Assembly (NCBI GenBank): GCA_963707025.1 | Contig: CAVPOM010000005.1 | Coordinates: 1 to 64,000 of the forward strand | Reading direction: 5' to 3' | Length of the DNA stretch: 64,000 nucleotides | Origin: an uncultured Verrucomicrobiae bacterium | Lineage (GTDB): Bacteria; Verrucomicrobiota; Verrucomicrobiia; Limisphaerales; Palsa-1400 | The notes under the pieces: model-generated | The model's input: the letters and a program-made list of their open reading frames with translations, nothing else | What the model was told of the DNA's origin: nothing | The model's database searches: none | Program-made: the position numbers and the translations under genes | Shown: positions 1 through 4,859 of the stretch, one piece after another | Layout: each line of letters begins with the position of its first letter | How positions within the stretch are numbered: the first letter of the stretch is position 1

Positions 1-154
1 ATTGGCTTTGATGGGCGACGCTTGAGGTAATATGTAAGTGGTTCATGAAAAGACATTTCTGATTGCGAGCGGCGAAAGTGCTGAAAAGGCCCGGACTGGC
101 GCGAATTTCACGCATAATTTCGGCCGCTTTCATGGTCAAGGTTCAAAAAAAATG

Positions 155-2111
155 GTAGAGTAGGCGAAGTGGAAGGAGGCGGATTGAACTGACCGCAGTT
201 GTCAGTCTCGCGCTGCCACTTCGCCCCTCATCGAACCGAACGGACGGATTTCCCATATTCGGCTCTCCGAACTCATTCATCGGGCCGCCTTCCACTTCGC
301 CGTGGTCGGCAGTTCATAGAGTCCATAACGCTGGTGCAACTGCTCGGGAACGTAGTGTTCCCACAGGCTGCGGCGGCAACCGTGTTTGCGCCACAGCCAG
401 CGCCGAAAACGGTTTTGGCTGTAGTGTTTCATCCGGTTCATCACCGAGACGCTGTTGCCGTAGTGGAAGTAGCCCGCCCATCCGCGCAAGACTTGGTTGA
501 CCTCTTTGACCACCTCCTGTATCGGACGCCCCTGCGTCCAGTGGTTGAGGATGCCGCCCAGTTTCTCGCGCAGGGCCCCCGGCTTTTCTGGCTGGGTTGA
601 ACGTGCAGGTAGCCGCGCCCTCCAAAGGACTTGCGCCAGGTCAGGTTGAAGCCCAGGAAGTTGATCCCTTCCTTGCGAATGTTCACAATTCGGGTTTTGA
701 CTTCGTTGAGGGTCAGCCCTTTGGCTCGAAGCCATTTCTTGAGCCGCGCTATCAGCCCTCCGCCGCACCCCGCCGCGCACGCGATGACAAAGTCATCGGC
801 GTAGCGCACCATGCGGGCTTGGCCGGAGGTTTTCTCGTTCACCCCGTGATCCAGCGGGTTGAGGTAGAGGTTGGCCAGCAGCGGCGAGATGACCCCGCCT
901 TGCGGCGTGCCGCGCCGGTTGGGGATCACTCGCTTGGTGCCGTCCTGGTCTTCCTCCGCGACCGGGGCGCGCAGCCAGCTCTTGAGGAGCCGCAGCACGC
1001 TGCCGTCGCTGACCCGCCGGGCCACGGCCTTCATCAGTTCCCGGTGCGGAATCGTGTCGAAATATTTCGTCAGGTCCGCGTCGATGATTTCCACGTAGCC
1101 TTGCTGCACTGCTTGTTGGATTTCCGCAATGGCTTGGTGTGCCCGGCGTTTGGGCCGAAAGCCGTAGGAGCGCGGATGAAAGTCCGCCTCCAAGATCGGC
1201 ATCAGCACCAGATACACCGCCGTTTGCACCACCCGGTCCTTGACCGTCGGGATGCCCAACGGCCGTTCCCCTCCGCTGCTCTTGGGAATCATCACCCGCC
1301 GCACCGGGCTGGCCCGATACGTCTTGGCTTTGAGTTCTGCTTGCAGGCGGTCGAGCCATTGCTGGCGCAGGGCCGGGTCGGCGGTGATGGACTCCATACT
1401 CTGTCCGTCCACTCCCGCGGCCCCGCCGTTGCGCTGTTGCGCTGCCAAGGCGGTTTCGAGCACGTCCTTGCGCAGCAATTCCCCATACAGGCTCCAGAAC
1501 CGATACTTCGGCTCTGCTTTGGCTTTCCGATAGAGCGCGATTTGAAGCTGCCGAACTTTCTCCGGGGTTGCTATCCGGGTCGCCCCGGCCATCCCCGCAT
1601 CCTTCGCTTCGCCTCCACGCATTGAGCAAGTGTTCCCCCTTTGCGTTCGCTCGCGCAACTCCCGGCGGAAATCCGCCTGGAGCGCAAACAAGTCCACGCT
1701 ACTATGAGGAACTCCGACTTCTCCGGCAGGGCCGCTCGCCTGACTGGTCTTGCCAGCTTGCGCGGGCGGTTGGGCTGGCCGCCCGCCGCCGGAGTTCTCC
1801 CAGCTTACCTTGGTTGAACTTCCAGACGTGCCGTCCACGCCGACCCCGCCGGAGCGTTGAGAAGGCTCTGACTGTTGCCCTGCCTCCTCCCTGCGGCCTT
1901 CGCCGGTCAAACAGCGGCTCGGCTTGTCTCCGGTTCTAAACTTATCGAGGCTCATTGGATGTGGTTCATTTTCATTACGGCCCGTCTGTTCATCTCCCTC
2001 AGCTTCCAACCCCGCCTCGCGGCGGCGCTGTTGAGGTCGTGTTCCGTCGTGAACAGCCTAATTCGACGGGCGGGACTTTCACCCGCGTTCCAACCAACTT
2101 CACTGGCGCAA
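155..2111 (-). mobile_element. Group II intron (retroelement), apparently full length
   Basis: The minus strand begins TTGCGCCAGTG...GGGTGAAAGTCCCG at 2111. Domain V, GAGCCGAATATGGGAAATCCGTCCGTTCGGTTC, is at 265-233. Domain VI ends ...CCTACTCTAC at 155. There is an internal RT ORF, and EBS1/EBS2 match the 5' flank. The 5' boundary could be 2112. Confidence 0.93.
277..1592 (-). CDS. ltrA: Group II intron reverse transcriptase/maturase, no C-terminal endonuclease; one frameshift near 576-580
   Basis: Motifs GAAGVDG, RPLGIPTVKDRVVQ, SYGFRP, GTPQGGVISPLLANLYL, RYADD and INFLGF in ORF 441..2009. Maturase domain X (NQVLRGWAGYF) is in ORF 277..780. Adding one G to a G5 run joins the two frames. The start at 1592 is chosen by family resemblance. 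Confidence 0.92.
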
Positions 2112-2112
2112 C

Positions 2113-2142
2113 GTTTGACCAAGTTTGACCAGGTTTGACCAG
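2113..2142. repeat. Three tandem 10-bp units GTTTGACCA(A/G) at the intron insertion site
   Basis: gtttgaccaa gtttgaccag gtttgaccag read directly. Confidence 0.95.
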
Positions 2143-2353
2143 CGACGATTTGGAACGCGCAGTGGTTGTGAGTAAGTGGTTCATGGACAGGCACTTGGAT
2201 TGATTTGCCGCAAGAAGAGGCTGAAAGGAGTGTTGGATTGATGGAGTGGTGGGCATTGTGGTTCAAGAAATCACACGATTAGGCACGATTGTGAGGGGCG
2301 GAACCTCCGCGGTCCCGGCAGGGCCGGGATTCGACATGGAACCCCTACGGCTT

Positions 2354-2436
2354 TGGAGTGTGCCGACAGGCCGGCGCCGCTTTGCCCTTTCTAAATCGTT
2401 CCCGATGCAAAAGCGGGAGCAAGCTCCCGCGCTCCA
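2354..2436. repeat. REP-like inverted doublet (TGGAGTG...CGCTTT / AAAGCGGGAGCAAGCTCCCGCGCTCCA)
   Basis: Two short palindromes in inverted orientation with complementary TGGAG/CTCCA and GCTTT/AAAGC ends. Confidence 0.7.
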
Positions 2437-2649
2437 CAGTGCCCTCATAACTCAGGCAAGAATAGCATTTAAGTACCAGTTGTCAACGGGAAAATCAGGA
2501 TCTTTGCAAGGGCCTCATCATTAGACACTTCGAGTCTGCGCGACTTGGCGTTGAATGTCCTGCTGACGGATGCGAAGGCCCAGTATTTGTAGCCGAGGCG
2601 TAAATGGTTGACCGGGCCAGAGTACACTGCTAAACCCCAGGCCATAAAC

Positions 2650-3072
2650 ATGATGGTGCGCCATTCATTTCCCTGCATCGGATTGCTCGCATTGCTGATT
2701 CTATCTGCTGGGTGCTGGGGGGGCGAACGGATGGAGCCTCTGTCTATGTTAGCATCAGTGGGTGGTCGGCATAGTGATGTGACGGGTGGAGATGGGTCAT
2801 CATACAGTACGGCTTTTGTAGTTAACACCACCCCGGCTGAGGCTGCTGAGGCAGAGACTTTCTTGATCCGGGAGATTGAGATGCGGCCTCCCCCGGGCAG
2901 TTCAATTATTCCCGAACTCCGTGGCCGTTTGCAGCGTTCAAAGGCGTTCATCAAACGAACGACTTACGACATCGTCATATTGACGAGACCTGATGGCACG
3001 ACACGAACCTTTTATTTCGACATCTCACACCTCAGATTGCAAAGTCCAAGAACAAGCGATCTTCCCCTTTGA
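2650..3072 (+). CDS. Hypothetical lipoprotein, lower GC than the flanking genes
   Basis: Hydrophobic N-terminus with a lipobox-like LSAGC. GGDGSS...YD...G...YFDI pattern. Start uncertain. Confidence 0.6.
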   Translation: MMVRHSFPCIGLLALLILSAGCWGGERMEPLSMLASVGGRHSDVTGGDGSSYSTAFVVNTTPAEAAEAETFLIREIEMRPPPGSSIIPELRGRLQRSKAFIKRTTYDIVILTRPDGTTRTFYFDISHLRLQSPRTSDLPL

Positions 3073-3154
3073 GTGAGCGATTGAGAATCAGCGCGGGCCG
3101 AACCTTTTGAATCATTCCTAAATGCACCAGGTAAACTTCACCGCGACTGGGCAC
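3055..3154 (-). pseudogene. 5' fragment of a PemK/MazF-family toxin gene
   Basis: GTG start at 3154 preceded by AGGAGG. Translates PSRGEVYLVHLGMIQKVRPALIL, the typical MazF N-terminus, and resemblance is lost after about 33 codons. Confidence 0.7.
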
Positions 3155-3346
3155 GGCTTTCCTCCTGGTCAAACAAGGCAAAGGTTTCAGCGGCAATTGC
3201 GGTTTGGTCCTTAACTGAGAGTGGCCCATAGCCATCGGTTAAGGGGAGAATGGCGCAGAGGAAGAGCGTTCGGCGGGCGAGACGACCGCGCTCCCCAAAC
3301 ACCCACGTTTCGCCGGTTGAGTAGCAAGTGTATCATACGGTAAGAA

Positions 3347-3393
3347 GCGGTCAGCGAGGGCGCTGACCGCCACATCCCGATTCGGAATCGGGA
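3347..3393. terminator. Two perfect hairpins downstream of nnr (terminator or REP-like)
   Basis: GCGGTCAGCG-aggg-CGCTGACCGC (3347-3370), followed by TTCTT on the minus strand, and TCCCGATTC-g-GAATCGGGA (3375-3393). Confidence 0.5.
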
Positions 3394-3430
3394 CGTGTGC
3401 TCCCCGAAACGTTTCACGCCGGGAATCATT

Positions 3431-4859
3431 CTAATCGCCGGGGCGGACCGAGCCAAGGTCCTGCGCCATATCCTCGACGGTCAGGTTGCAGCGCCATGGG
3501 AGATTTTGATCGGCGCAGGCGCCGTGCTGCCAGACGGCGAAACGGATGGCGGCGAGGGGATCATTCTGGCAGGCAGGCTGGGCCAGCAGACCGGCCAAAT
3601 AGCCGGCGAGTAAATCGCCGCTGCCGCCTTGAGCGAGAAGCGGATTGCCGGAGCTGTTGATGAAGATGTGGCCGTCGGCGCGGCCAACCAGGGTGTGATG
3701 GCCTTTGAGCACAACATGGCAATGGCCGAAACGCCGCGATAATTGGCGCAAGGCCGTGACGCGGTCGGCCTGCACTTCCCTGGCCGTAACGCCCAGCAAA
3801 CGGGCCGCCTCTCCCGGATGGGGAGTGATGACGCGCACAACCTGCGCCGGGGTGGCGTCCGGTTTGAGCCAATCCAGCGCGCTGGCGTCCACCACCATCG
3901 GTCCGGGGAAAGTTTTCCAATGGAAGCGCAATTCCTTTTTGAGCGTGGCGGGGAGTTTGTCGGCGGCGAGGCCGGGGCCGAATAAAATGGCGGTGGCATT
4001 TTTTGGAGGGGCGGCCGGCCCGCCAAGGACGGACCATGGCGGCCTGGAGTTGAGTGGCCACGGGGATGTAAACGGACGGTTGCGGCTCAACCGTCACCAG
4101 GCCCGGCTGCGCCCGCAAGGCGCCGCGCGCCGCCAGCACGGCCGCGCCATGATAGCCGGCGCTGCCGGCAATGATGGCGGCATGACCAAAGGTCGCCTTG
4201 TTGCTTTCCACCGGGCGGCGCGGCGGCCAGGCGGCGAAATCTTCCGGCAAGGTCCAATTGAGTTCGCCCGCCAGCGGACACGCAATCAAGCCGATGTCCG
4301 GCGCGACTTCCAAACGGCCCACCCATTGCGGGGCCTGGAGCAGGCCGCGCTTGGGCGCGCCGACCGTGAGGGTGAGATCGGCCCGGATGGCGGCCCCTTG
4401 CACCTGGCCGTTGTCGGCGTCCAGGCCGGAGGGAACATCCACGGACAAAACCGGCAGGCCGGATTGATTGACCCTGTCAATGAGAGTTTTCCAGGGTCCG
4501 TCCAGCGGACGGTTCAAGCCAATGCCAAACAAGCCGTCAATAATCCACTTGGGCCGGGCGCGTCCGGGGGCGGACAGAATTCTGCGGGAGAATTCCCTGG
4601 CGGCGGTCCTGGGATCAACCGCCTCGACCAGCGCCACCTCGCGCCGGGACAGGTGGCGGCGGGCGGCGCGGGCGTCGTCGCCGTTGTGGCCGCGGCCGGC
4701 CAGGATGAGGAGGGTGTCGCCGGGCTGGGTGAGATCGAGGGCGCGGCGGGCGAGGAGGCGGCCGACGTTCTTAATGACAGCGGCGGGGGAGCGGCCCGCG
4801 GCCCAGTTGGCGTTCTCCCATTGGCGCATTTGGGCGACCGAAATGACCGGAACAGGCAT
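3431..4859 (-). CDS. nnr: Bifunctional NAD(P)H-hydrate epimerase/dehydratase (YjeF); frameshift near 4000-4015
   Basis: GHNGDD, IIDGLFGIG and VDVPSG in the N-terminal ORF; VVDASAL, ITPHPGEAARL, VLKG and GGSGDLLAG in the C-terminal ORF. Confidence 0.92.

What the first reader, a model, noticed from the sequence alone, without database searches (positions are those of the whole stretch)
1902..2142. Group II intron whose EBS1 and EBS2 both read a 10-bp tandem repeat: a repeat-homing intron
Seen: the 5' flank (minus strand) ends GGTCAAACCT GGTCAAACTT GGTCAAACG, then the intron begins. Domain I has a hairpin GCCG[CTGTTTGAC]CGGC (1918-1902) whose loop pairs with the last 8 exon nt, GTCAAACG, with one G-U pair. 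Just 5' of it, AAGTTT (1943-1938) pairs with AAACTT in the previous repeat unit (2126-2121). Known: EBS2 before EBS1 is the canonical order, and introns that target repeated structures exist (terminators, attC sites, IS elements). Inference: this endonuclease-less intron is specialised to home into a dispersed non-coding phased repeat rather than a gene. I do not recognise this target class.
Basis: partly seen in the sequence, partly recalled or inferred. Interest (0 to 1): 0.82.

Follow-up and report, generated by a model that had tools for sequence, protein, structure and literature searches.

The report
Mobile intron homing into tandem repeats
A self-splicing mobile intron has copied itself sixteen times in this bacterium, nearly always into a short repeated DNA motif that its RNA guides base-pair with; aiming at repeats is ordinary homing, but the whole lineage also starts one letter earlier than standard introns of this kind while staying mobile.

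Summary
The group II intron (window 155-2112, minus strand) has 16 near-identical copies in this genome. 15 of 16 sit in a dispersed 10-bp repeat (GGTCAAAC units, usually followed by an inverted TGACC arm), and 14 of 32 strict repeat loci are occupied. So the intron starts GUUGCG, EBS1-IBS1 is 7 of 7 Watson-Crick, and there is no G-U pair. Across relatives EBS1, EBS2 and EBS3 covary with their flanks, and 83 of 115 sites lie in short tandem arrays of different units. The mechanism is ordinary EBS/IBS retrohoming by an endonuclease-less, class-F-like intron whose cognate site is almost confined to the repeat. This scan has noted introns in dispersed repeats before in other genomes. The less expected result is a clade of 56 loci with a one-nucleotide-longer 5' end (GUUGCG, GCUGCG, CCUGCG) that keeps RT, EBS2 and the branch A. 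The shifted-splice-site introns in the papers I read had lost these. Splicing and mobility were not tested.

The parts
155..2112 (-). Group II intron, 1958 nt, class-F-like IIB ribozyme; one of 16 near-identical genomic copies
2107..2112 (-). Non-canonical 5' end GUUGCG (one nucleotide longer than GUGYG)
2113..2140 (-). 5' part of the target repeat: three GGTCAAAC(NN) units
2113..2119 (-). IBS1 GTCAAAC, 7 of 7 Watson-Crick with EBS1
2121..2126 (-). IBS2 AAACTT (core AAAC 2126-2123) in the previous repeat unit
2053..2058 (-). alpha (GGCUGU)
   Evidence: 6 of 6 pairs with alpha' in 58 of 59 loci where both were located, with compensatory forms
1952..1952 (-). Probable delta' (A) in the coordination loop
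   Evidence: inferred from the Rfam alignment; not tested by covariation because delta is invariant
1938..1943 (-). EBS2 AAGUUU (core GUUU 1941-1938)
   Evidence: register test
1902..1918 (-). EBS1 hairpin; delta U1913, EBS1 GUUUGAC 1912-1906
   Evidence: the isolated fold does not favour this hairpin on its own; support is comparative
1870..1875 (-). alpha' (ACAGUC), between the arms of a stem downstream of the EBS1 hairpin
1841..1841 (-). EBS3 (G), pairs with the first 3' exon base C154
   Evidence: 30 Watson-Crick, 3 G-U, 1 mismatch in 34 loci; +1 is C in 16 of 16 copies
277..1592 (-). RT-maturase ORF without endonuclease domain; frame interrupted in this copy at the G run 576-580 (frame stops at 441); intact 438 aa in 7 of 16 copies
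233..265 (-). Domain V with AGC triad and a 5-nt terminal loop
158..229 (-). Long domain VI with bulged branch A at 161
134..154 (-). 3' part of the target repeat: IBS3 C154, T-rich spacer and inverted arm TTGACC (139-134)

Best explanation
A recently expanded, endonuclease-less group II intron with a class-F-like IIB ribozyme spreads by ordinary retrohoming. Shown by sequence comparison: EBS1 (7 nt) pairs with the last repeat heptamer, the EBS2 core (4 nt, sometimes 5-6) pairs 10 nt upstream, which in a 10-bp array is the same place in the previous unit, and EBS3 pairs with the next base. That roughly 12-nt site is nearly confined to a dispersed, mostly intergenic repeat, so the repeat is a multi-copy safe harbour. 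In relatives the three EBS elements have been re-set many times to other 7-10-bp arrays. The mobile unit begins one nucleotide upstream of a YUGCG motif, a derived trait of one clade. Inferred, not tested: transcription from host promoters, lariat formation at the D6 bulged A, reverse splicing into single-stranded DNA at replication forks with nascent-strand priming as in RmInt1/RmInt2, supply of RT in trans to frameshifted copies, and some added contribution from protein contacts to the distal exon or from selection against insertions in genes.
For: 16 copies at 99.8-100% identity with the same junctions. Of 535 perfect IBS1+IBS3 sites, 14 of 45 in tandem context and 1 of 490 elsewhere are filled; with the full EBS2 core 12 of 41, without it 3 of 494 (sites are not independent); 0 of 176 non-tandem intergenic sites are filled. 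For 32 distinct EBS1 sequences, own-exon pairing is 6.38 of 7 versus 2.49 +/- 0.25 shuffled; for 33 distinct EBS2 regions 3.52 versus 1.91 +/- 0.19 at the proposed register, 0 of 3000 shuffles. The one genic insertion keeps IBS1, IBS3 and 4 of 6 IBS2 pairs in the same register without any repeat. 83 of 115 relative sites have a >=5/7 copy of IBS1 7-11 nt upstream, versus 8.5% of 3632 intergenic control positions and 1 of 22 distant introns. The 56 extended-end loci form one clade on a domain I tree built without the extra base (support 99).
Against: No splicing, lariat or mobility data; the RNA runs held only relatives as contigs. 32 of 115 relative sites show no tandem copy, and only 12 of 24 canonical-start sites do. 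Some pairings are imperfect: in G301 the GGUUGAU allele faces a G or A mismatch at -2 in 3 of 3 sites with flanks. EBS2 pairs with only 3-4 bases at 15 of 16 sites, and neighbouring registers also show a weak excess (8 and 2 of 3000 shuffles). Related introns are not independent samples. Only 5 non-tandem sites carry the full EBS2 core (0 filled), too few to separate sequence from structure or selection.
Confidence: 0.85

Rival explanations
1. Structure-directed targeting: the intron or its protein recognises the hairpin formed by GGTCAA and the downstream TTGACC arm, as class C introns recognise terminators and attC sites.
For: 27 of 32 strict repeat loci carry the inverted arm; 13 of 37 tandem sites with an arm are filled versus 1 of 8 without.
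Against: The arm lies downstream of the insertion point, whereas class C introns insert after the stem (PMC4424553, PMC7306698 passages). The intron has a full 7-bp EBS1 and a covarying EBS2. The C11 and C4:333215 insertions are outside the hairpin repeat. Many relatives target direct arrays of other units. The arm difference rests on 8 sites.
Confidence: 0.08
2. Survivor bias: the intron inserts widely at IBS1-like sites and only insertions in dispensable repeat DNA persist.
For: 314 of 490 non-tandem sites lie in predicted genes, where insertion would be costly; the single genic insertion is 29 nt from a stop codon.
Against: 0 of 176 non-tandem intergenic sites are filled; EBS2 covaries with the upstream unit across lineages. 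Selection probably shapes which EBS alleles persist but does not replace targeting.
Confidence: 0.07
3. The extra 5' base is not in the excised RNA. The intron splices at YUGCG and the base is added at each insertion, for example by non-templated addition by the RT, or it is an exon base paired by an 8-nt EBS1.
For: Group II RTs add non-templated nucleotides (own knowledge; listings touch on it). Delta U could wobble with G in the G-start forms.
Against: The base is heritable by lineage: G in 16 of 16 copies, C in 10 of 10 loci of one subclade where delta U cannot pair. Empty sites never have it. Delta is U in canonical relatives too, with EBS1 in the same position. One contig joins an intron 3' end directly to GTTGCG (L190).
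Confidence: 0.08

Closest known systems
Bacterial class F / g2-g4 endonuclease-less group II introns (Toro and Martinez-Abarca 2013, PMC3552965; Nagy et al. 2013, PMC3753933), e.g. Ni.ha.I1 of Nitrobacter hamburgensis (g3)
   Same: RT-maturase without En, about 440 aa and about 1.9-2.0 kb; 5-nt D5 loop, long D6, EBS1/EBS2/EBS3 recognition; 45% identity to Ni.ha.I1.
   Different: Separate clade on the RT tree (support 100; relation to g3 unresolved); Ni.ha.I1 starts GTGCG and is listed in an IS4 transposase; here the start is GUUGCG and the target is a short tandem repeat.
RmInt2 and RmInt1 of Sinorhizobium meliloti (class D; PMC4615759, passages read)
   Same: En-minus, multi-copy, home into repeated non-essential DNA; RmInt2 tolerates a 4-bp EBS2-IBS2 and can form head-to-tail copies.
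   Different: Their targets are insertion sequences or IS inverted repeats, not 7-10-bp arrays; different ORF class; a lagging-strand bias is shown for them but was inconclusive here.
Thermosynechococcus elongatus TeI3/TeI4 families (PMC2882425, passages read)
   Same: Proliferation by diversification of EBS sequences into families with different targets, many intergenic.
   Different: IIB1 introns with an En domain and many ORF-less copies; targets not described as tandem arrays in the passages seen.
Introns with a shifted 5' splice site: C.te.I1 (PMC4024640, abstract and passages) and fungal mitochondrial rRNA introns (Li et al. 2011; not read, known through PMC4024640 and PMC4424553)
   Same: IBS1 is not directly next to a GUGYG motif; the splice site follows EBS1-IBS1.
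   Different: Those introns lost the RT frame, EBS2 and the branch A and splice by hydrolysis. This clade keeps all three and is multi-copy. The shift here is only 1 nt and can also be read as an insertion after G1.
Class C (IIC) introns at terminators and attC sites
   Same: Multi-copy, harmless target with an inverted repeat nearby.
   Different: IIC introns use a short EBS1, lack EBS2 and insert after the stem; this one has a 7-bp EBS1 and an EBS2 and inserts within the 5' arm.

Membership tests
Group II intron retroelement | Domains I, V and VI with catalytic triad | tested here: met
   Rfam RF02005 62.2 bits and RF00029 42.6 bits; D5/D6 fold z -3.6
Group II intron retroelement | RT-maturase ORF in domain IV | tested here: met
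   RVT_1 and GIIM, YADD motif; intact in 7 of 16 copies, interrupted in the window copy
Group II intron retroelement | 5' GUGYG boundary directly after IBS1 | tested here: not met
   Starts GUUGCG; a boundary variant, which does not exclude membership (PMC4424553 lists altered splice sites)
Group II intron retroelement | Self-splicing and retrohoming activity | not testable with these tools
   Inferred from 16 near-identical copies at exact junctions
IIB-type exon recognition | EBS1-IBS1, EBS2-IBS2 and EBS3-IBS3 pairings | tested here: met
   Covariation
IIB-type exon recognition | delta-delta' pair inside the intron | tested here: inconclusive
   delta is U in 75 of 75 and does not pair with +1 C; delta' A inferred from the Rfam alignment; no variation to test
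Class F / g2-g4 (IIF) | No endonuclease domain | tested here: met
   ORF ends shortly after the maturase domain
Class F / g2-g4 (IIF) | 5-nt D5 loop, long D6, alpha' at a stem-loop end (features taken from PMC3753933 passages; the D5 loop and alpha' are shared with class E) | tested here: met
Class F / g2-g4 (IIF) | RT falls inside a named clade | tested here: inconclusive
   Only Ni.ha.I1 (g3), Sr.me.I2 (g1) and Rh.sp.I1 were available as references; own clade, deep branches open, quick tree only; g2, g4, basal F, D and E references not included
Class C (IIC) terminator/attC introns | Short EBS1, no EBS2, insertion after a stem-loop | tested here: not met
Shifted-5'-splice-site introns (C.te.I1 type) | [quoted passage not shown] | tested here: met
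   1 nt; 19 extended-type EBS1 classes give 6.42 pairs at this boundary versus 1.95 if shifted by one
Shifted-5'-splice-site introns (C.te.I1 type) | Loss of EBS2, branch A and RT | tested here: not met
   Bulged A in 27 of 27 extended-type loci where the end of D5 was found (29 others lacked that region); EBS2 covaries; RT present
REP/BIME-type repeat (target) | Dispersed, mostly extragenic, imperfect palindrome | tested here: met
   32 strict loci, 30 outside predicted genes, 27 with an inverted arm
REP/BIME-type repeat (target) | Associated RAYT transposase and its terminal tetranucleotide | not tested
   No search for a transposase linked to this repeat was run; the feature is recalled

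The most novel reading that the evidence does not exclude
A lineage of actively mobile bacterial group II introns, Verrucomicrobial where the host is named, has a remodelled 5' splice site (N-Y-UGCG, including forms that begin with C) yet still branches and reverse-splices. It has repeatedly re-programmed EBS1 and EBS2 to track the 9-10-bp tandem arrays of its hosts, whose period matches the EBS1-EBS2 spacing. This would contradict the published speculation that mobile introns need IBS1 directly next to GUGYG, and would add short tandem arrays as a clade-wide target class.
Probability: 0.6. Interest if true: 0.68.

Novelty: new variant of a known kind. Interest (0 to 1): 0.55.

Why it matters
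The target choice gives a large natural re-targeting series: 32 distinct EBS1 sequences with matching flanks, useful for deriving homing rules of a little-studied endonuclease-less class and for showing how introns spread without hitting genes. The 5' end is the more testable point. McNeil and Zimmerly (PMC4024640) suggested that mobile introns may need IBS1 directly next to GUGYG, and the shifted-site introns they discuss had lost mobility features. Here a multi-copy clade carries one extra nucleotide, in one subclade without a first G, with branch A, EBS2 and RT intact. Deleting or swapping that base is a simple test of how the 5' splice site is positioned for branching and reverse splicing. 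It also means boundary callers that assume GUGYG will misplace these introns by one base.

Tried and rejected
Strand bias relative to replication: a third-codon GC-skew proxy was noisy on this 18-contig assembly; 10 of 16 copies, 8 of 14 filled and 5 of 18 empty repeat loci scored as leading-like, so inconclusive. Link of the repeat to a gene family: the unknown ORF whose tail holds two insertions has only 4 hits in the genome, 2 next to repeat loci, and no Pfam match, so it does not explain the 32 loci. Orthologous empty allele of the window's own site: not found in 5 related genomes, only dispersed repeat pieces. RNA evidence: the best runs held at most 0.14 of the words and are contigs of relatives, so no splicing, strand or circle can be claimed; the 3'-to-5' joints in X2 and X7 contain flank letters and may be tandem copies or assembly cycles. 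The 5'-end pattern had 0 hits in viral contigs and hit only the own genome among 401 genomes of the class. The careful RT tree did not finish and the quick tree is reported; no one-clade test was run. A g2 reference accession was not held. A first D5 regex failed and was replaced. The branch-A count was circular, since ends were found by that motif, and is superseded. Whether the G5/G6 run is a real slip or a sequencing error is unresolved: it does not follow the other SNP patterns. Literature: ten searches listed no paper describing this clade, a GUUGCG start, or homing into short tandem arrays. The library lacks most subscription papers; Simon et al. 2008, Li et al. 2011 and the intron database were not seen, nor supplements other than Table S2 of PMC3552965.

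Full report
1. Observation. The minus strand shows the three repeat units, the EBS1 hairpin and the AAGTTT segment at the coordinates given. Rfam places domain I at 2079-1834 and domains V-VI at 267-155. D5 has an AGC triad and a 5-nt loop; D6 is long with a bulged A at 161. The RT-maturase ORF starts at 1592 and has no endonuclease domain. In this copy the frame is interrupted at a G run at 576-580.

2. The genome holds its own experiment. The assembly (18 contigs, 6.96 Mb) has 16 full-length copies at 99.8-100% identity, differing at 7 alignment columns; 7 encode the intact 438-aa protein and 9 share the one-base-shorter G run. All 16 are preceded by G and followed by C. 15 have GTCAAAC before that G and one has GCCAAAT. 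14 lie in GGTCAAAC arrays, one in a related AAGCCAAAT array and one near the end of a 120-codon gene.

3. Empty-site reconstructions with the G have no exact match in the genome for any of 16 sites; without the G, 10 of 16 match. The intron-free orthologue of the interrupted gene in same-genus G268 (98% identical protein) reads AAAC|CA, FVKPAP. In RNA-library contigs of relatives, homology stops at 2112, and one joint has exactly ten letters between the two intron ends (contigs only). So the intron starts GUUGCG, IBS1 is GTCAAAC with 7 Watson-Crick pairs, and U1913 is delta.

4. Target preference. After removing the introns in silico there are 535 GTCAAAC|C sites: 14 of 45 tandem and 1 of 490 non-tandem sites are filled. 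With the full AAAC core at -11..-14, 12 of 41 are filled; otherwise 3 of 494. 36 of those 41 are tandem, and 0 of 176 non-tandem intergenic sites are filled. By locus, 14 of 32 strict repeat loci are occupied and 27 of 32 have an inverted TGACC-type arm. With a rough gene model of my own (73% coding), 13 of 16 copies are outside genes, 2 are in the low-complexity tail of an unknown ORF and 1 is 29 nt before a stop codon. The window's 6-bp EBS2 match is unique among the 16; most have 4 pairs.

5. Relatives. For 32 distinct EBS1 sequences the own flank gives 6.38 of 7 Watson-Crick pairs against 2.49 +/- 0.25 shuffled. EBS2 gives 3.52 against 1.91 +/- 0.19 at the proposed register. EBS3 pairs in 33 of 34 loci. 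Examples: GUGUGAC with EBS2 core GUGC on GTCGCAC arrays, CCUUGAU on ATCAAGG, CUUCGUU on AACGAAG, ACCCGAA on TTCGGRT arrays. Of 115 distinct sites, 83 have a copy of IBS1 (at least 5 of 7) 7-11 nt upstream, mostly at period 10 (53) or 9 (21); at 6 of 7 the count is 49. Controls are 8.5% and 1.4% of 3632 intergenic positions and 1 and 0 of 22 distant introns. Weighted per distinct IBS1 (47) the shares fall to 58% and 33%. Kin are not independent, so these figures overstate significance. One truncated locus (L186) may be misclassified.

6. The 5' end. Of the 75 loci, 19 start with canonical GUGCG and 56 have one more base: 38 GU-, 8 GC- and 10 CC-UGCG. On a domain I tree built without that base the 56 form one clade (support 99). 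The quick RT tree agrees: 21 rows at 95, and 87 with L007 and the unclassified L083. Canonical forms lie outside, so the extension is derived. All 27 extended-type loci in which the end of D5 was found have a flanked bulged A seven bases from the 3' end. [quoted passage not shown] This clade is a mild counter-example by sequence. It was not tested biochemically.

7. Mechanism. Shown: boundaries, EBS1/2/3 pairing, copy number and target bias. Inferred from RmInt1/RmInt2 (PMC4615759 passages): lariat reverse splicing at replication forks and nascent-strand priming; my strand test was inconclusive. In class F introns EBS2 had no role in in vitro splicing and was proposed to serve homing (PMC3753933 passages), which fits its covariation here. 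The 9-10-bp period matches the spacing between EBS1 and the EBS2 core, so one guide word can read two adjacent units; this is a property of the target, not a new recognition mode.

8. Comparison. The nearest named element found is Ni.ha.I1 (g3, former class F) at 45% (PMC3552965 main text and Table S2 read). The clade is separate and its group is unassigned. [quoted passage not shown] Passages of PMC12584367 and bioRxiv 10.64898/2026.10.21.760802 added nothing. Ten searches listed no description of this clade or target, with the library limits noted. Earlier notes of this scan report introns in dispersed repeats in eight findings from other genomes (unchecked); none matched this sequence or a shifted splice site query.

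9. Verdict. Real, well supported and mechanistically ordinary as to targeting; a new variant as to the clade-wide use of short tandem arrays and the extended 5' end. Interest 0.55.

Noticed in passing
L211, L221 (300 nt upstream of the pattern match); L190: An intron 3' end is followed by exactly one 10-nt repeat unit and then another G-started intron; in L190 the 3' end abuts GTTGCG directly. Head-to-tail copies or assembly cycles.
   Followed up: partly
G301 (L115, L118, L121 versus L123-L126): One genome carries two EBS1 alleles, GUUUGAU in 3 copies and GGUUGAU in 4; the second mismatches its flanks at -2.
   Followed up: partly
L186: A truncated intron after GTCAAAC starts AG-TGCG, possibly a fourth extended 5' type; EBS1 is missing so it cannot be checked.
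   Followed up: no
L140, L146: L140 has domain V only about 660 nt after the 5' end, so it looks like an ORF-less derivative of the canonical-start group; L146 has the same EBS1 and may be similar.
   Followed up: no
G000 repeat loci: The GGTCAAAC repeat points toward a same-strand downstream gene in 23 of 30 loci with a downstream gene, mostly 100-480 nt away; unexplained.
   Followed up: no
window 2113-3500: The flank is a mosaic of dispersed repeat pieces (52 matches in G268), with a CATGAACCACTTAC-type motif on both sides of the intron (window 34-58 and 2172-2196).
   Followed up: partly
L001:5-1156 (G000 C4 and C6): Two identical copies (over the 210 aa compared) of an ORF with no Pfam match whose low-complexity tail contains the repeat and an intron.
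   Followed up: partly
G000:C11:46162 (L002:2331-2660): The only insertion in an ordinary-looking gene: a 120-codon ORF without Pfam match, next to a DEAD-box-like helicase gene (name from recalled motifs).
   Followed up: partly
G000:C15:110865-111623: A distant group II RT fragment (48% identity), unrelated to the 16 copies.
   Followed up: no
L013: A relative at 53% RT identity appears to start GAGCG after a perfect IBS1.
   Followed up: no
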